Assembly: GCA_000165345.1 (NCBI GenBank)
Contig: CM000433.1
Location: 896,001 to 960,000, forward strand
Reading direction: 5' to 3'
Length of the DNA stretch: 64,000 nt
In this document: positions 1,661 through 63,592 of the stretch, piece by piece
How positions within the stretch are numbered: position 1 is the stretch's first letter
Layout: the number at the start of each line of letters is the position of its first letter
The notes under the pieces: generated by a model
The model's input: only the letters and a program-made list of their open reading frames with translations
The model's database searches: none
Told to the model about the DNA's origin: nothing
Translations under genes and position numbers: made by a program

Positions 1661-1750
1661 AACGCGCCAGAAAGTGCATGCACTTGCAAACATGCATTTT
1701 AATGTGGACAGAGGCAAGTATTAGTGCATGTGGATATATCCCGGTATATG
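1661..1750. promoter_or_regulatory. Upstream motif cluster (CGCGCC E2F-like half-site, two TGCATGCA/GCATGC palindromes, ACCGGT-like CCGGTA) 250-340 bp upstream of the 2004 gene
   Basis: aacgcgccag...gtgcatgcacttgcaaacatgcat...gtgcatgtggatatatcccggtatatg; GC-containing motifs in an otherwise AT-only spacer. Confidence 0.4.
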
Positions 1751-2003
1751 TAATAAATCATGTATATATAGTCACAAATAGGGAGAAAATGCGGTTCGAA
1801 AGAAATTATTAAAAATTGCAAAATAAATAAATTCCCCCACAACAAATGAATGTAAGGCATGTAATGCAAATAAACAATAGAAGATGAATTTTATTTGTTA
1901 TTATTTTTTTTACATTAATAATATAACAATAGAAGCATTTATTTCAAAAAAAAAATTAATAATAAATAAAAATCAGGAAATGAATTTAACATAAAATTTC
2001 AAT

Positions 2004-3560
2004 ATGTTTAGTAATTCTGTCAGCACAAGTTTAAACTCATACGAGAATTTTGATGAGAACCAAGAATTAAAATTGACAGGTGAAAAAAAAATTGAAATAG
2101 ATCATTTTCAAAATGAAATTAGTCCAAGAAATATAATTAATAATTTTCCTGTAATAACAGGTTACTATGGAGTTGTGTTAAGAAAAAAAAAACATCCACT
2201 TTTTGGGTCATATTGGAATAAGGAATATTGCTTATTACAATCCAATATTTTTTTATGTCATGAATTAAAATATCCATATAAAATCAAAAGGAGTATATCA
2301 ATAGCTTCTATTTCCAAATGTGAAATTTCAAAAATGGATCCTTGTGTATACTGTTTAACAATAAATAATAATGAAGAGAACTTGGAAAAAGCTGGAATTT
2401 CACAAGTTGGTGGATTTTCATGTTTTAACTTCAAGTCTAGGAAAATTGAAATAATTAAAATAAAATGTACATCAACTTTAGATACTCAGAAATGGAATCT
2501 ATATATTAATAATACACTTAAAAATTGGAGATCAAATAAAAATAATACTAAAAATCTATATAATGGAAATCAATATATTGAAAAAACTATAGCTCAAGAA
2601 TTATTTGAAAAGATGAATAAAAAGTTAAAAAGAATTATTATTCAATCATCAATAAATAATATGATTTTAATATTCAGACAAATAGAAAAAAGAAATCTTT
2701 ATAATAGTTTATACAAGATTAAGATTAATAGTATAATCAATTCAAATAATGATATAGAACGGGAAAGTATATCATCAAAAAATACAAATCATTCATCCAT
2801 ATCTAATAATGATTTTACATTTAAAAAAGATTTATTATTGATTAAAAGAAGAATTATTTTATTTAAAATTGAGCAAGGATCAAATCACCTAAAAAGATTA
2901 ATAATTAAAAGAATGTCAGAATATTGGAAATTATTAAAAGAGCATTCTTTAAATAATCATGAAGATCATGAATTTATGGAAATACACTATAAATTAATAT
3001 TAAAAAGACGGATTTTCTTATTTTGGAGAGAATTACTTCGAATTATTTTGTTAAAAGATAAAAATTTTAAACAAGAAAATAGAAAAACAATTAATTCTGT
3101 CATCCCAAAAGATTCTACTATAACAAATAGCAATAATTTTTTTCACTCTAACTTATCATCTAAGCTTATATTAACTTCAACTGAAAATAATCAAATTAAT
3201 ACAAAAAAAGTGTATTATAAATCAAATGAATCCAAGAATCAATTTAAACTAAATAAAATGGTTAAAGATAAAGATGATAAACATCAAGCAACATTTAAAA
3301 TGTTATTAAAAAACAATAATACTCATATAAAGAGTATTTGTAATATTCATGAAAATATTGTACAAATAACTAAGCTTAATTTTATTATACTTACAAAAGT
3401 AAAAACTGCTTGGAATATTTTAGAAGCAAATCGAATAAAAAATAATGCATTATTATCCATTCGCAAATACAATCAAGTTCAATCGTTTTTTGAAATATTA
3501 GAAAGAAATCGGAAATTAAAAATTTATAGAGCTTTCCAAATATTGAAACAAGAAAAGTAA
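2004..3560 (+). CDS. Hypothetical N/K-rich protein with an N-terminal PH-like domain
   Basis: 518-aa ORF starting at an ATG. Residues about 50-110 (ITGYYGVVLRKKKHPLFGSYWNKEYCLLQSNIFLCHELKYPYK) resemble the G-x-L-x-K-K...W-K-x-R-x-F-x-L core of PH domains. The rest is low complexity. Confidence 0.5.
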   Translation: MFSNSVSTSLNSYENFDENQELKLTGEKKIEIDHFQNEISPRNIINNFPVITGYYGVVLRKKKHPLFGSYWNKEYCLLQSNIFLCHELKYPYKIKRSISIASISKCEISKMDPCVYCLTINNNEENLEKAGISQVGGFSCFNFKSRKIEIIKIKCTSTLDTQKWNLYINNTLKNWRSNKNNTKNLYNGNQYIEKTIAQELFEKMNKKLKRIIIQSSINNMILIFRQIEKRNLYNSLYKIKINSIINSNNDIERESISSKNTNHSSISNNDFTFKKDLLLIKRRIILFKIEQGSNHLKRLIIKRMSEYWKLLKEHSLNNHEDHEFMEIHYKLILKRRIFLFWRELLRIILLKDKNFKQENRKTINSVIPKDSTITNSNNFFHSNLSSKLILTSTENNQINTKKVYYKSNESKNQFKLNKMVKDKDDKHQATFKMLLKNNNTHIKSICNIHENIVQITKLNFIILTKVKTAWNILEANRIKNNALLSIRKYNQVQSFFEILERNRKLKIYRAFQILKQEK

Positions 3561-3754
3561 CTATTACCATCAGATTCAATTCAATTATTAATTTCAAAAA
3601 AAAAACTAACAAACATAAATAATTTTACAACTATTTAATTAAATTAATTCCACTATTATAATTTATTTTATACAATAATATATATTTTACTTTTTCGACA
3701 TTGTTAGAAAACTTGCATGCAATTTTGCAATATAATTCCTTTGCATAATAGATC

Positions 3755-60520: not shown

Positions 60521-61140
60521 TTACTTAATTATATTTATTTTTATCTTTATTTTTCCACATAAATTTTGAATAATTTTTAAAAGAAAATAGAATAAAAAAG
60601 AAACTAGCTAATAATAGCTATTATTCGAAATAAAATTGTATTTAATCAATTTAGATTTATTGCTGAGAATTTCTGTAAATATTTTAATATAAACTTAATC
60701 ATGGTTTTAAAAATTCTGTGTTGTTTTGAATATTTATTTCAAAGCACATTTTTTTCCTAATGCACTAAAAATAAGTAATTTTTGCTCACTGCCCCACATG
60801 CACACAGGCGCCAAATTAAATATACCGGTATATGATAAATAATTTAAAAAAATAGAGGGAAATATTTAAAAAATAATAATAATTTTGAGATAAAGAATGA
60901 GTAATTCTGATAATTTAATGTTGAAATAAATATTAAAGATTTGTCAAAATCTTTTGATTCATTCCTTCGTTTAATAATTTTGCTCTTGATAAAAAAAAAA
61001 AAAAATTTTTAAATACTAGCTAGAATTGTTTCAAAGGATTAATTAATAAGAATCTGGGTGGTTTGATTTAAAAAAAAAAAAAAGAATAAATTAATTAAAT
61101 CATCAGAAATCAAAAATATAATTAAATAGAGCCTGATATC

Positions 61141-63019
61141 ATGACAAACTTGGTGAAAAACGGCCATGAACTTATACATTCTATTTTTAATAGAATTTCT
61201 GGAATCAAAGTAAGTAAAATCCTACTTAATATATTATTTTAATTACAAAAAATATTAATCATTACTACCATTATTATTCATTTGACTTCTATTAAACCTA
61301 AAATAATTAACAATAAAACTTGCTGATTTTAGATTCTAATTTTGGATAGAGAAACTGTTCAACAAATCTCTTTGGTATTTTCTCAATCTGAGTTGTTAAA
61401 AAGGGAAGTATTTCTTACAGAGCTAATAGATGTGACAAATAGGTCAAACCTTCCACATTTCTCTGGAATTTACTTTATTAGACCAAATAAAGAAAATATC
61501 TCAATTTTATGTAATGAACTTAAAAAACCTTTATTCAAAGAATATTATGTATATTTTACTAATAACATATCCCCACAAATACTACAAAAGATTGCTGTTA
61601 GTGATGAAAATGACGTAATTAAAAGAATACAAGAAGTCAAGTTAGATTTTAATGTTATAAGCTGCGACTTATTTTCATTGAGTATGAACTATTTTGGTAA
61701 GTTTAAATTTAATCAAAATTATGTAAAATATAATTAATTCAATTTCGAATATTAAAGCTTCAATGTATAATCTTCCATCAAGTTGGACAACTTATGAAGA
61801 AACATTATTCTCAAGAATGATTGAAGGTATTTACTCAGCAAGTCTTCAACTTGGAGAGATTCCTGTTATACGATATTTAGCAAATTCTCCATTATGTAGA
61901 AATATTGCATTTGCAGTAGAAAGAAGACTATTAGATTCTAATCTAATAGACTTAGTATCGGGAGAATTTGTTAACACTAGATCAGAAAGCTACGACGATA
62001 AGAGAAATGAAAGTACTATTCTATTAATACTTGATAGAAGAGAAGACCCTGTTACTCCTCTTTTAACTCAGTGGACTTATCATGCAATGATACATGAATT
62101 ATTAGAAATTAAGAATAATAGATTATGTTTAGATAATGGAGGGTTTTCTAACAAAGAAAAAGAAGAATATGTTTTATCTGAACAATATGATGATTTTTTT
62201 AGAGATCATAAATACGATAATTTTGGAGATATTGGATTTTCTATCCGAGATTTGGTCAATAATCATCATGAATCTTCTAAAACTAATCATCGTCTAGAAA
62301 CAATTGATGATATTAGTAGATTTGTTCAAATGTATCCAGATTTTAAAAAAGAGTATAATAATATTTATAAACATGTAAATATACTTCATGAACTTTCAAG
62401 AATTGTTCAAGAAAGAGACTTAATGAGAATATCTGCATTAGAACAAGATTTAACAGTTTGTGATAATGTTGATGAACATTCAAGACAAATAGGAAATCTA
62501 TTATCAGATACTAGAATTTCTCAATTTGACAAATTAAGACTAGCTCTTCTTTATTCCTTGAAATATGAAAAGGAAGAAATACAAATCAACAATTTTAAGT
62601 ACCATTTAGGAACTCAGGCAAATTATATTGATAAATTGTTGCAAGTATTTGGAGAAAATTTCAGATCTGGAGACCTCTTTCTGAATAAGACACTATTAAA
62701 TATTGCAAAGAATACAATTAATAAGTCTAATAATAATAATATTTATATTCAACATAAAACTTTATTATACTATATATTAGAAAATTTGGTTAAAGGTAAA
62801 CTAAAAAATAGTAGATTTCCATCAACTACTGATGATTATAATTCTTCAAAAAAACCACTAAAAATTATGGTATTTGTTGTTGGAGGTGTAACTTTGGAAG
62901 AATCTAGAGATGTAAATGTCATTAGAAACTTATATGATGTTGACATAATTCTTGGAGGAACTAATCTACTGAACTCAAAATTGTTTATTAAAGATCTTGA
63001 ACTACTAATAAATAGTTAG
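61141..63019 (+). CDS. VPS45: Vacuolar protein sorting 45 (Sec1/Munc18 family SM protein); three exons
   Basis: Exons are 61141..61209, 61333..61696 and 61758..63019. Intron 1 (61210..61332, 123 nt) runs from GTAAGT to GATTTTAG. Intron 2 (61697..61757, 61 nt) runs from GTAAGT to ATTAAAG. The phases fit: 0, then 1 with G+CT giving Ala. ILILDRETVQQISLVFSQSELLKREVFLTELID...YFIRPNKENI matches VPS45 ([33 protein letters not shown]...CFLRPTKENV). LILDRREDPVTPLLTQWTYHAMIHELLEIKNNR matches [34 protein letters not shown]. The C-terminus has IMVFVVGGVTLEE...ILGGTN. Confidence 0.8.
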
Positions 63020-63592
63020 ATAAGTAATAATAATACTAAATAGTCATTCATTTTATTTTTGTCTTTTTTTTATTGTTATAAATTTTCTATTGCATGCAAT
63101 TGAAAATTAAAATCCCACAGAGCCCGCCAAAATCTCAATAATAATAAAAATGTTCATATGTCTAATATATATCTATAAAAAGAAAGTATAAGAATTAATT
63201 TAAAAAAAAAAATCAAGGTAAAAATTTTCTTTTTCTTCTTAATGGATTAATATTTAGTTACATTTAAAGCTACTAAACCTTTCATTCTGTAAATCATCCA
63301 TAAATATCCTTAACTATTTTATTAACAACATTATTGCCACTTATATTTTTAATTACTAATCAATTTTTTTCTCTCAACTATTTAATAACAAATAAATCAA
63401 AAATCAACTTAATCCAGTAAGAATTAATTGAAAAAGTTAATTTAATTTGCAAAAGCAAAAATTGAAGGTTATAACAAATAAATCAACTATATAGTTCTAT
63501 CATTGGTAATTATACAAAAGGAATTTAATGAATTAATACTAAATAAGCAATAATATATAAACAGTATTGAATTGAGTTGATTCATATTGAAA

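What the first reader, a model, noticed from the sequence alone, without database searches (positions are those of the whole stretch)
1661..63134. Pervasive promoter grammar: E2F-like GGCGCC/GGCGGG sites paired with TGCATGCA palindromes (and ACCGGT) upstream of almost every gene
Intergenic DNA here is about 15-20% GC, but nearly every 5' spacer has a short GC-rich island. The islands are variants of TTTGGCGCCAAA or GGCGGGAAA. Examples are at 3788, 6034, 9945, 11856, 12574, 17901/17932, 20631, 26336, 31678, 32735, 35681, 38427/38478, 42890, 46390, 47874, 48950, 54963, 55337, 60804 and 63121. TGCATGCA-type palindromes sit next to them (1672-1736, 20581-20607, 24869-24900, 42841, 46370, 46880-46925, 50695-50720, 58588-58612, 63093). 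ACCGGT recurs at 1741, 20654, 31421 and 60827. E2F-like sites are often inverted pairs in bidirectional spacers, as at 17901/17932. This matches the E2F-like and ApiAP2-type GCATGC motifs reported as over-represented upstream of Cryptosporidium genes, and it is the main basis for the taxonomic inference. GCATGC palindromes also occur in two convergent 3'-3' spacers (24869..24900 and 50695..50720), where no promoter is expected.
Basis: partly seen in the sequence, partly recalled or inferred. Interest (0 to 1): 0.5.

Follow-up and report, generated by a model that had tools for sequence, protein, structure and literature searches.

The report
Known Cryptosporidium E2F and AP2 promoter motifs
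The short GC-rich islands between genes are real, conserved regulatory sites of Cryptosporidium parvum (E2F-type sites 5' of nearly every gene, plus GCATGC palindromes), but this motif set is already published, so the finding is correct and ordinary.

Summary
The window is Cryptosporidium parvum DNA (reverse strand of CP044418.1, about 805.8-869.8 kb). An unbiased k-mer scan of the spacers against dinucleotide shuffles ranks GGCGCC/TTGGCGCC (10 observed vs 0.04-0.13) and TGCATGCA (12 vs 0.11) first.

E2F-like sites (consensus ttTGGCGSSaAa) lie in 9/9 divergent and 10/12 tandem spacers but only 1/9 convergent spacers. That puts one 5' of 28 of 29 genes. They are rare in coding DNA. They sit as conserved islands in otherwise diverged orthologous spacers of C. 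ubiquitum, C. canis and C. felis.

This grammar is already published (Bankier 2003 as cited by later papers; Oberstaller 2013/2014; Li 2021; Xiao 2025), so the main finding is not novel.

The "pairing" claim holds only in part. 8 of 26 E2F-like sites have a GCATG-type site within 40 bp (2.8 expected). Full TGCATGCA palindromes are absent from all divergent spacers. They concentrate in convergent spacers and in the stop-codon-proximal part of tandem spacers (P about 0.002-0.01, small n). I did not find this 3'-side bias, or a conserved ATACCGGTAT element, in the papers I searched. Both are leads from a single window.

The parts
1663..1748 (.). Tandem spacer module: CGCGCCA (1663-1669), TGCATGCA (1675-1682), CATGCA (1691), TGCATG (1725), CCCGGTATAT (1739-1748). 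It lies 27-90 bp after the upstream stop codon and 260-340 bp before the next ATG.
3714..3799 (.). TGCATGCA (3714-3721), CATGCA (3767) and TGGCGCCCAAA (3789-3799), upstream of the EF-hand gene.
5981..6041 (.). ACCGGTA (5981-5987) and TTGGCGCC (6034-6041) in a divergent spacer.
8781..8786 (.). Weak E2F-like CCCGCC, upstream of the RanBP1 gene.
9945..10171 (.). TGGCGCCAA (9945-9953) and TGCATGCA (10164-10171) in a nominally convergent spacer. One assembly annotates a 67-aa spliced gene at about 10040-10570 (+), so this is probably a promoter of a small or non-coding transcript.
11860..11868 (.). CCCGCCAAA, 195 bp upstream of the hydrolase gene (- strand), in a long divergent spacer.
12560..12584 (.). 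TGCATG plus CCGCCAAA: the second site cluster of the same divergent spacer, on the side of the RING-finger gene.
15620..15670 (.). ATACCGGCAT (15620) and TGCATGCA (15663-15670) in a convergent spacer, 23 bp from the stop codon of the - strand gene. No E2F-like site is present.
17902..17945 (.). Inverted pair TTGCCGCCAAAA / TTTGGCGGTAAA at the centre of a 911-bp divergent spacer.
20578..20661 (.). Composite module: CCCCTC, three GCATG half-sites (20583, 20595, 20606), CCCGCCA (20635) and ATACCGGTAT (20652-20661). The orthologous C. ubiquitum spacer has TGCATGCA, an E2F-like site and TACCGGTA.
24871..24899 (.). TGCATGCA x2 plus TGCATG in a 230-bp convergent spacer with no E2F-like site. The second copy is conserved in C. 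ubiquitum (TGCATGTA) and C. canis (TGCATGCA).
26337..26357 (.). TTGGCATTGGCGCGCGCGCCA, a palindromic E2F-like site in the 287-bp divergent CWC25 / IP5 2-kinase spacer. The GCGCGC core is conserved in 3 species.
31380..31460 (.). About 70-bp block, nearly identical in C. parvum, C. ubiquitum and C. canis: ACACGTCATATA .. GTGTGGGGGG (G-box) CTATACCGGTG TTTGCATGC TTGTCCAC.
31678..31697 (.). GTGGCGC..TTGGCGGCAA, a double E2F-like site conserved in 3 species, 125-140 bp upstream of the ATG.
32734..32745 (.). Perfect palindromic E2F site TTTGGCGCCAAA, 71 bp upstream of the U1-type zinc-finger gene. Conserved in C. ubiquitum and C. canis.
35002..35010 (.). TTCCCGCCA, 351 bp upstream of the PP2A-type phosphatase gene (- strand), in a 1.5-kb divergent spacer. 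TCCCGCCA is conserved in 3 species.
35678..35750 (.). TTTGGCGCC (35678-35686) and GGCGGCAA (35743-35750): the second cluster of the same divergent spacer, on the side of the + strand gene.
37899..38093 (-). U2 snRNA gene. It splits the apparent tandem spacer into a convergent part and a divergent part.
   Evidence: Rfam RF00004, 157 bits
38176..38489 (.). GGCGGGAAA (38176, 84 bp upstream of the U2 5' end), TTGGCGG (38427) and TTTGGGCGGGC (38479-38489), between the U2 gene and the DEAH helicase gene.
42839..42903 (.). TGCATGTATGCA (42839-42850) and GGCGGGAAAA (42894-42903), 187 bp upstream of the ATG.
46373..46395 (.). CATGCACGCG .. TTGGCGCCA, 131-147 bp upstream of the EF-hand gene (- strand).
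46885..46932 (.). TGCATGCACGCGCC (46885-46898) and TGCATGCA (46925-46932), 165-210 bp from the stop codon of the neighbouring gene.
47875..47884 (.). TTTGGCGCCA at the centre of a 396-bp divergent spacer. Conserved in C. ubiquitum, C. canis and C. felis.
48950..48961 (.). TTTTGGCGCCAA. Conserved in C. ubiquitum, C. canis and C. felis.
50696..50717 (.). CATGCATGTATGCATGCATGCA in a convergent spacer. The ACATGCATG core is shared with C. canis and degenerate in C. ubiquitum. The (TGCA)n expansion is specific to C. parvum.
54967..54978 (.). GGCGCCACCCCA: an E2F-like site abutting a G-box.
55337..55356 (.). TTTGCCGCCAAATACATGCA: an E2F-like site abutting a GCATG half-site. CCGCCAAA is conserved in 3 species.
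57925..57935 (.). TGTGTGCATGCA (CACACA-type plus AP2_1-type). It is one of only three GC-containing 8-mer blocks shared by three species in the PP2C 5' spacer (with AATATGGCA and AGAGGAAT), and that spacer has no E2F-like site in 6 species.
58588..58608 (.). GCATGCA and TGCATGCA inside the 88-bp Sld5 intron (58544-58631, - strand). Conserved only in C. ubiquitum.
59086..59093 (.). GGCGGCAA in a 356-bp divergent spacer. The block CTTGCCGCC..TGTGTGT..ACGATACC is conserved in 4 species, and C. andersoni has ATGGCGCCCATG in the same spacer.
60792..60831 (.). Composite module CCCCACATGCACACAGGCGCCAAATTAAATATACCGGTAT (G-box, CATGCA, CACACA, E2F, ACCGGTA) upstream of Sec1. Conserved in C. ubiquitum, C. 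canis and C. felis while the rest of the spacer has diverged.
63091..63132 (.). TGCATGCA (63091-63098) .. CCCACA .. CCCGCCAAAA (63123-63132), 71-103 bp after the Sec1 stop codon. Conserved in C. ubiquitum and C. canis.
52604..52670 (.). Intragenic cluster inside the CDS of the 1193-aa gene: CCCGCCA, TGCATGCA, GCATGC, GGCGCC. Its function is uncertain.

Best explanation
This is a typical stretch of the compact Cryptosporidium parvum genome. Its intergenic spacers carry short, conserved transcription-factor binding sites, and there are two layers.

Layer 1 is the E2F/DP-type site ttTGGCG(C/G)(C/G)aAa, often the full palindrome TTTGGCGCCAAA. It most likely acts as the general promoter-nucleating element. 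The inferred mechanism is that an E2F/DP heterodimer binds it and opens chromatin, and transcription then starts nearby, often in both directions. Short divergent spacers carry one central site or inverted pair shared by both genes. The two long (about 1.5 kb) divergent spacers carry two separate clusters, each nearer one gene.

Layer 2 is a set of ApiAP2-type sites: (T)GCATGC(A) = AP2_1, CACACA = AP2_2, and the G-box GTGGGG. An ATACCGGTAT palindrome with no known binding factor also belongs here. These sites either abut the E2F site in conserved composite modules or stand alone. Stand-alone TGCATGCA clusters sit on the 3' side of genes: in convergent spacers and in the stop-proximal part of tandem spacers. 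There they most likely act as ApiAP2-bound, stage-specific elements. They would work as distal elements of the next gene or as starts of antisense or non-coding transcripts.

What is shown here: enrichment, distribution by spacer class, and cross-species conservation. What is taken from the literature: E2F/DP and TGCAT-binding AP2 genes exist in this genome, and E2F motifs dominate open chromatin. What is inferred: which factor occupies each site, where transcription starts, and what the 3'-side palindromes do.
For: Enrichment. E2F-like and GCATGC k-mers top an unbiased ranking against dinucleotide shuffles, and 0 of 1000 shuffles reach the observed counts.

Distribution by spacer class. E2F-like clusters occur in 9/9 divergent, 10/12 tandem and 1/9 convergent spacers. 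The single convergent case lies upstream of a small gene model. 28 of 29 genes have an E2F-like site in their 5' spacer, at a median 346 bp from the ATG. Density is 1.45/kb in promoter-containing spacers against 0.13/kb in genes.

Consensus. 32 aligned half-sites give ttTGGCGccaAa, which matches the canonical E2F site TTTSSCGC (the canonical consensus is established knowledge).

Conservation. The sites are islands of identity in otherwise diverged orthologous spacers of C. ubiquitum, C. canis and C. felis. An unbiased list of 8-mers shared by three species in orthologous spacers is dominated by GGCGCCAA, TGGCGCCA, CCCGCCAA, TGCATGCA, TGCACACA, ATGTGGGG and ACCGGTAT. E2F-like enrichment repeats in C. 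ubiquitum (23 vs 0.8), C. canis (24 vs 2.3) and C. felis (17 vs 2.3).

Pairing. 8 of 26 E2F-like sites have a GCATG-type site within 40 bp, against 2.8 expected (P = 0.001).

Literature. E2F (TGGCGCCA), AP2_1 (BGCATGCAH), G-box and CACACA are the reported over-represented upstream motifs of C. parvum (PMC3734150; PMC12246861). The same sources report E2F and DP genes in the genome. Four AP2 domains bind TGCAT(GCA) on protein-binding microarrays (PMC4117751). E2F is the dominant motif in sporozoite ATAC-seq peaks, and more than half of the peaks are annotated as bidirectional promoters (bioRxiv 10.1101/2025.01.17.633476). E2F and AP2_1 are the top two motifs within 100 bp upstream of antisense lncRNAs (PMC7840661).
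Against: No transcription-start, ChIP or reporter data exist for these particular sites. Distances from E2F-like site to ATG vary widely (77-764 bp), so a fixed core-promoter geometry is not shown.

Full TGCATGCA palindromes avoid divergent spacers entirely (0 of 10 clusters, P = 0.006). That is not what a simple promoter element predicts.

Sporozoite ATAC-seq peaks contain no AP2 motifs. None of the 324 stored lncRNAs (of 396) from Li 2021 covers the sampled probe sequences: 18-mers in the 3' ends of six genes flanking three convergent spacers, and in the spacers at 9804-10563, 24812-25041 and 50423-50863.

In this region E2F-like enrichment is weak in C. xiaoi (4 vs 0.9) and C. andersoni (2 vs 0.3). 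The spacer-class statistics come from one 64-kb window.
Confidence: 0.78

Rival explanations
1. TGCATGCA is mainly a gene-end element, not a promoter element. A protein bound to the palindrome, or the UGCAUGCA sequence in the RNA, would help terminate or process transcripts, or insulate neighbouring genes in a genome with 200-500 bp spacers. A palindrome would serve both genes of a convergent pair.
For: TGCATGCA clusters by class: 4 in convergent spacers (1.04/kb), 6 in tandem spacers (0.78/kb), 0 in divergent spacers (7.7 kb). P(0 of 10 in divergent) = 0.006. The class distribution differs from that of E2F-like sites (permutation p = 0.0016). In all 6 tandem cases the palindrome lies in the stop-proximal 11-38% of the spacer (KS p = 0.009). 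The convergent-spacer site at 24885 is conserved in 3 species with no E2F-like partner. No catalogued lncRNA covers any of the sampled probe sequences at these loci. Sporozoite open chromatin lacks AP2 motifs. Theileria offers a precedent: motifs at transcript 3' ends with a proposed dual role in termination and antisense initiation (PMC4761415).
Against: The sample is small (10 clusters, one window). Half-sites occur in both orientations relative to the nearby gene (1691/1725; 20583/20595/20606), which argues against recognition at the RNA level. In tandem spacers most palindromes sit 10-80 bp from an E2F-like site, so they may simply belong to promoters placed far from the ATG. For the site 5' of PP2C, the distance to the downstream ATG is steadier across four species (about 820-940 bp) than the distance to the upstream stop codon (about 105-280 bp) (coordinates). 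AP2 domains bind this sequence as DNA. Several sites are not conserved in C. felis, C. xiaoi or C. andersoni.
Confidence: 0.2
2. The GGCGCC-type islands are bound by a factor other than E2F/DP, and the resemblance to the E2F consensus is coincidental.
For: [quoted passage not shown] Oberstaller 2013 calls for ChIP-seq to decide whether these motifs are true E2F sites.
Against: The consensus ttTGGCGSSaAa, including the perfect TTTGGCGCCAAA, matches the E2F site over 10-12 positions. According to the papers read here, Cryptosporidium is the only apicomplexan genus that kept E2F/DP, and the motif is its most abundant upstream motif. MEME/Tomtom assigned the ATAC-seq peak motif to E2F1/E2F6.
Confidence: 0.08
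3. The motifs are compositional or repeat artefacts with no function: chance GC clusters, microsatellites, or remnants of a dispersed repeat.
For: The site at 50696-50717 looks like a (TGCA)n microsatellite expansion and is C. parvum-specific in that form.
Against: Dinucleotide-preserving shuffles never reach the observed counts. The sites are conserved islands in diverged orthologous spacers. Flanks of different copies share no similarity beyond the motif. Tandem Repeats Finder reports no array at these sites.
Confidence: 0.01

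Closest known systems
E2F-like upstream motif of Cryptosporidium parvum (Oberstaller 2013 motif 3 DTTGSCGCCH and motif 4 TTTGGCGGGAAV; review form [A/T][C/G]GCGC[G/C][A/T])
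   Same: Same organism, same sequence and same 5'-spacer location. Reported as the most abundant upstream motif (161 of 200 expression clusters) and the dominant motif in ATAC-seq peaks.
   Different: Nothing essential differs. This window adds local detail: 9/9 divergent, 10/12 tandem and 1/9 convergent spacers; one central site in short divergent spacers; and site-by-site conservation in C. ubiquitum, C. canis and C. felis.
AP2_1 motif TGCATGCA / BGCATGCAH, bound by ApiAP2 domains (cgd2_3490, cgd1_3520, cgd8_3230, cgd5_4250; orthologue of P. falciparum PF14_0633)
   Same: Same palindrome, over-represented in non-coding DNA, often in homotypic clusters. Also reported upstream of antisense lncRNAs.
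   Different: Published work scored 'upstream' regions defined from the ATG back to the next gene. In tandem gene pairs that region includes the neighbour's 3' flank, and convergent spacers were never scored. Here the full palindrome is absent from divergent spacers and enriched on the 3' side of genes. I did not find this distribution in the papers I read.
Bidirectional promoters of compact eukaryotic genomes (C. parvum ATAC-seq peaks; Giardia as cited by Li 2021)
   Same: A single central E2F-like site or inverted pair in short divergent spacers (17902-17945, 26337-26357, 47875-47884, 59086-59093).
   Different: Bidirectional firing is not measured here. It is inferred from the geometry and from the literature.
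Motifs at transcript 3' ends in Theileria parva (Tretina 2016)
   Same: A compact apicomplexan genome with motifs conserved in tail-to-tail spacers. A dual role in termination and antisense initiation was proposed.
   Different: The Theileria motif is AT-rich and hairpin-prone, not GCATGC. It was mapped against real transcript ends, which I could not do here.

Membership tests
E2F/DP binding site | Sequence matches TTTSSCGC, often as the overlapping palindrome TTTGGCGCCAAA | tested here: met
   32 spacer half-sites give the consensus ttTGGCGccaAa. A perfect TTTGGCGCCAAA lies at 32734-32745, and there are 18 TTSSCGC/GCGSSAA matches in promoter-containing spacers against 0.83 in shuffles.
E2F/DP binding site | Located in promoter regions (5' of genes), not in 3' regions or coding DNA | tested here: met
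   9/9 divergent, 10/12 tandem and 1/9 convergent spacers. 1.45/kb in promoter-containing spacers against 0.13/kb in genes. 28 of 29 genes have a site in the 5' spacer. Position relative to true transcription start sites was not testable.
E2F/DP binding site | Sites are under purifying selection | tested here: met
   Conserved islands in diverged orthologous spacers of C. ubiquitum, C. canis and C. felis, and one site in C. andersoni.
E2F/DP binding site | E2F and DP proteins are encoded in the same genome | not tested
   Literature only: 2-3 E2F and 2 DP genes in C. parvum (PMC3734150 Table 2; PMC12246861).
E2F/DP binding site | Physical occupancy by E2F/DP | not testable with these tools
   Only indirect evidence: an E2F motif dominates sporozoite ATAC-seq peaks. 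The review notes that functional validation is lacking.
ApiAP2 AP2_1 site (TGCATGCA) | Palindromic (T)GCATGC(A) core, over-represented in non-coding DNA | tested here: met
   12 in spacers against 0.11 in shuffles; 4 in 44.6 kb of genes.
ApiAP2 AP2_1 site (TGCATGCA) | Acts from upstream (promoter) regions of target genes | tested here: inconclusive
   0 of 10 clusters in divergent spacers, 4 in convergent spacers, and 6 in the stop-proximal part of tandem spacers. Yet many lie within 10-80 bp of an E2F-like site, and one block is conserved at about -850 bp from the PP2C ATG.
ApiAP2 AP2_1 site (TGCATGCA) | Bound by an AP2 domain | not testable with these tools
   Literature: protein-binding microarray results for four C. 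parvum AP2 domains (PMC4117751).
ApiAP2 AP2_1 site (TGCATGCA) | Sites conserved between species | tested here: inconclusive
   Conserved at 63091, 57928 and 24885 in C. ubiquitum and/or C. canis. Partly conserved at 50706. Absent in C. felis, and absent as the full 8-mer in C. xiaoi and C. andersoni, across this region.

The most novel reading that the evidence does not exclude
In Cryptosporidium the TGCATGCA palindrome would be a separate layer from the E2F promoter grammar, marking gene 3' ends. It would either be a bidirectional terminator or boundary element, or the dedicated promoter of 3'-initiated antisense transcripts. Its published 'upstream' over-representation would then partly reflect scoring tandem spacers from the ATG back to the neighbouring gene. 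A second, smaller novelty would be ATACCGGTAT as an undescribed conserved promoter element with no known binding factor.
Probability: 0.25. Interest if true: 0.5.

Novelty: already known. Interest (0 to 1): 0.22.

Why it matters
The main result matters little as a discovery. It re-finds, from raw sequence, the published cis-regulatory vocabulary of C. parvum: E2F-like, AP2_1, G-box and CACACA. It also correctly identifies the organism.

It is useful as a worked local example. E2F-like sites follow gene 5' ends almost one-to-one and are conserved across the C. parvum, C. ubiquitum, C. canis and C. felis group.

Two leads may be worth a genome-wide check by people who hold the full annotation with UTRs. 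The first is the 3'-side bias of the full TGCATGCA palindrome. If it holds, it would change how AP2_1 "target genes" are assigned in a genome with very short spacers. The second is the conserved ATACCGGTAT element, which is absent from the published list of 25 motifs.

Tried and rejected
1. Chance or composition. Rejected by dinucleotide-preserving shuffles.

2. Repeat or microsatellite origin. Tandem Repeats Finder reports nothing at the sites. Only the site at 50696-50717 looks like a (TGCA)n expansion.

3. Islands as non-coding RNA genes. The Rfam scan found only a U2 snRNA (37899-38093, - strand) and an intronic C/D-box snoRNA (7210-7292), and there are no tRNAs. None of the motif sites lies inside them. 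The U2 gene did change the class of one spacer, and the statistics were recomputed.

4. Antisense lncRNAs at the convergent-spacer palindromes. I searched the Li 2021 lncRNA FASTA for 18-mers from the 3' ends of the six genes flanking three convergent spacers (15304-15693, 24812-25041, 50423-50863), and from the spacers at 9804-10563, 24812-25041 and 50423-50863. There was no hit, and a positive control worked. The stored file holds only 324 of 396 records, so this weakens the idea without excluding it.

5. Link to the reported holocentric CENH3 sites. Those sites carry GA-rich motifs, not GCATGC. Dropped.

6. RNA-level recognition of UGCAUG. Half-sites occur in both orientations relative to the adjacent gene. 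Unlikely.

7. Replication on independent C. parvum regions. Not possible.

8. The intragenic cluster at 52604-52670 as an internal promoter. Its 4-species identity is only at the 82nd percentile for the gene. Left open.

Full report
**Origin of the window**

The PP2C open reading frame at 55740-57077 (- strand) and three other window proteins are encoded exactly in NCBI assembly GCA_015245375.1, contig CP044418.1. A paper on the C. parvum genome uses this assembly as the C. parvum reference. The window is the reverse strand of about 805.8-869.8 kb of that contig. 1270 of 1279 non-overlapping window 50-mers are identical to it. PP2C homologues are named C. hominis (99%), C. ubiquitum (89%), C. 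canis (85%), C. felis (81%), C. xiaoi (77%) and C. andersoni (67%).

**Gene models**

I transferred the gene calls of that assembly to the window. This gave 30 protein-coding genes and 29 spacers: 19.4 kb at 21.9% GC, against 28.3% GC for genes. A later Rfam scan added a U2 snRNA gene at 37899-38093 (- strand) and an intronic C/D-box snoRNA at 7210-7292. The U2 gene splits one apparent tandem spacer. The final classes are 12 tandem, 9 convergent and 9 divergent spacers.

- Every listed E2F-like coordinate holds a GGCGCC, GGCGGG, GGCGGC or TTGGCGG-type site within about 5 bp, and every listed GCATGC coordinate is real.
- Small corrections: some "palindromes" are half-sites; 58588-58612 lies in the 88-bp Sld5 intron; position 1741 is CCCGGT; and two ACCGGT coordinates are off by 3-8 bp.
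I ranked all 6-mers and 8-mers in the spacers against 300 dinucleotide-preserving shuffles. The top of the list was GGCGCC (10 vs 0.13), TGGCGC (19 vs 0.53), CATGCA (44 vs 4.4), GGCGGG and TTGGCG. Next came G-box words (GTGGGG, GAGGGG), GCATGC, CACACA and CCGGTA. The top 8-mers were TTGGCGCC (10 vs 0.04) and TGCATGCA (12 vs 0.11).
- With 1000 shuffles per spacer class, no shuffle reached the observed counts in promoter-containing spacers.

**E2F-like sites follow gene 5' ends**

- Clusters occur in 9/9 divergent, 10/12 tandem and 1/9 convergent spacers.
- The single convergent case (9945) lies about 95 bp upstream of a 67-aa spliced gene model that one assembly annotates.
- With a slightly looser definition, 28 of 29 genes have a site in their 5' spacer. 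The median distance to the ATG is 346 bp, with an interquartile range of 190-428 bp. PP2C is the exception.
- Density is 1.45/kb in promoter-containing spacers and 0.13/kb in genes.
- 32 aligned half-sites give ttTGGCG(C/G)(C/G)aAa, which is the canonical E2F site.
- Short divergent spacers have one central site or an inverted pair: 17902/17934, 26337-26357, 47875 and 59086. The two 1.5-kb divergent spacers have two clusters, each nearer one gene.

**The sites are conserved**

I fetched the orthologous region from six species in total: C. ubiquitum, C. canis, C. felis, C. xiaoi and C. andersoni around PP2C, and C. ubiquitum and C. canis around the IP5 2-kinase gene. Gene order is conserved, but the spacers are largely unalignable except for short blocks.

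- Upstream of Sec1, the block ATACCGGTAT..TTTGGCGCCTGTGTGCATGTGGGGCA is shared by C. parvum, C. ubiquitum, C. canis and C. felis.
- In the 403-aa / Sld5 divergent spacer, CTTGCCGCC..TGTGTGT..ACGATACC is shared by four species. C. andersoni has ATGGCGCCCATG there.
- In spacer 30925-31820, a block of about 70 bp holding ACGTCA, a G-box, ACCGGT and TGCATGC is almost identical in three species. The double E2F-like site at 31678-31697 is also conserved.
- An unbiased list of 8-mers with at least 3 G/C that three species share in orthologous spacers is dominated by E2F-like words, TGCATGCA, TGCACACA, G-box words and ACCGGTAT.
- E2F-like enrichment repeats in C. ubiquitum, C. canis and C. felis. It is weak in C. 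xiaoi and C. andersoni for this region.

**This is known biology**

- Oberstaller 2013 lists E2F-like (DTTGSCGCCH, TTTGGCGGGAAV), AP2_1 (BGCATGCAH), G-box and other motifs as over-represented upstream of C. parvum genes. The paper credits an earlier chromosome 6 study for the first sighting.
- Oberstaller 2014 shows AP2 domains binding TGCAT(GCA) and calls E2F the most abundant upstream motif.
- The 2025 review tabulates the same set and notes that Cryptosporidium alone among apicomplexans kept E2F/DP.
- Xiao 2025 finds the E2F motif dominant in sporozoite ATAC-seq peaks, with more than half of the peaks annotated as bidirectional promoters and no AP2 motif in open chromatin.
- Li 2021 finds E2F and AP2_1 to be the top two motifs within 100 bp upstream of antisense lncRNAs.

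Pairing is real but partial. 8 of 26 E2F-like sites have a GCATG-type site within 40 bp, against 2.8 expected when GCATG sites are re-placed at random within their own spacers (P = 0.001).

The full TGCATGCA palindrome has a different distribution from the E2F site:

| Spacer class | TGCATGCA clusters |
|---|---|
| Tandem | 6 |
| Convergent | 4 |
| Divergent | 0 |

- The probability of 0 of 10 clusters falling in divergent spacers by length alone is 0.006. The contrast with the E2F-like distribution gives permutation p = 0.0016.
- In all six tandem cases the palindrome lies in the stop-proximal 11-38% of the spacer (KS p = 0.009).
- The convergent-spacer site at 24885 is conserved in C. ubiquitum and C. 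canis. The one at 50706 is only partly conserved, and its (TGCA)n expansion is specific to C. parvum.
- Published target assignments defined "upstream" as the sequence from the ATG back to the next gene. For tandem pairs that includes the neighbour's 3' flank, and convergent spacers are never scored.
- I looked for catalogued antisense lncRNAs at three convergent spacers and found none. The stored file is incomplete.

The 3'-side bias could mean antisense or non-coding promoters, distal elements of the next gene, or a gene-end function. The mixed orientation of half-sites and the known DNA binding by AP2 domains favour a DNA-level element. The sample is small and comes from one window, so I treat this as a lead only.

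**The ACCGGT claim**

ACCGGT resolves into an ATACCGGTAT-type palindrome at 20652 and 60822. Partial forms occur at 1741, 5981, 15620 and 31427. CCGGTA/TACCGG is enriched (7 vs 0.94). It is conserved in orthologous spacers at three loci. It is not among the 25 published motifs, and two literature queries found nothing on it.

**Verdict**

The finding is already known. The "paired with TGCATGCA upstream of almost every gene" part is overstated. The distribution of the palindrome and the ACCGGTAT element are the only points that go beyond the literature I could search.

Noticed in passing
window 37899-38093 (- strand): U2 spliceosomal RNA gene (Rfam RF00004, 157 bits) inside what looked like a tandem spacer. 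A GGCGGGAAA site lies 84 bp upstream of its 5' end, so that E2F-like site may serve the snRNA gene rather than the helicase gene.
   Followed up: partly
window 7210-7292 (+ strand): C/D-box snoRNA (SNORD96-like, 68.6 bits). It lies between the two large ORFs (6419-7219 and 7445-8524) of the 589-aa spliced gene at 6422-8524, so it is probably intronic.
   Followed up: no
window 20652-20661, 60822-60831; partial forms at 1741, 5981, 15620, 31427: ATACCGGTAT-type palindrome. It is enriched in spacers, usually 17-80 bp from an E2F-like site, and conserved in C. ubiquitum, C. canis and C. felis. It is not in the published list of 25 motifs, and no binding factor is known.
   Followed up: partly
window 31380-31460: A block of about 70 bp (ACACGTCATATA .. 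GTGTGGGGGGCTATACCGGTGTTTGCATGCTTGTCCAC), almost identical in C. parvum, C. ubiquitum and C. canis inside an otherwise diverged 900-bp divergent spacer. It includes a CRE-like ACGTCA.
   Followed up: partly
window 58544-58631 (- strand): The 88-bp intron of the Sld5 gene holds TGCATGCA and GCATGC 13 bp apart. The C. ubiquitum intron keeps TGCATGCA plus CATGCA. The C. canis, C. felis, C. xiaoi and C. andersoni introns have none.
   Followed up: yes
window 52604-52670 (inside the CDS of the 1193-aa gene, - strand): Four motif hits within 70 bp of coding sequence: CCCGCCA, TGCATGCA, GCATGC, GGCGCC. TGGGCGCCATCTCC is identical in four species, but the region is only at the 82nd percentile of conservation for the gene.
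   Followed up: partly
window 50069 and 50314 (3' part of the 274-aa gene): TTTTGGCGCC and GGCGGGAA inside coding sequence, 108-353 bp before the stop codon and next to the convergent spacer that carries the TGCATGCA repeat. This could be an internal or antisense promoter.
   Followed up: no
window 57078-58143 and orthologous spacers in L021, L022, L023, L025, L026: The 5' spacer of PP2C has no E2F-like site in any of six species. The GC-containing 8-mer blocks shared by three species there are TGCATGCACACA (820-940 bp upstream of the ATG in four species), AATATGGCA and AGAGGAAT.
   Followed up: partly
window 13298, 14397, 23080, 23135, 23151: Single-base insertions relative to the IOWA-ATCC assembly. 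Where the reference has a single 700-aa RING-finger ORF (13201-15303), the window has two overlapping ORFs; the ORF at 21062 is also truncated. The window probably comes from another assembly or isolate with indel errors.
   Followed up: partly
L026 (C. xiaoi) and L023 (C. andersoni), whole loci: In the same syntenic region these two more distant species show only weak E2F-like enrichment (4 vs 0.9 and 2 vs 0.3) and no TGCATGCA 8-mers. The grammar may differ outside the C. parvum / C. ubiquitum / C. canis / C. felis group.
   Followed up: partly
window 9804-10563: Only one assembly annotates a 67-aa spliced gene here (about 10040-10570, + strand). An E2F-like site at 9945 and a TGCATGCA at 10164 suggest a real but possibly non-coding transcript.
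   Followed up: no
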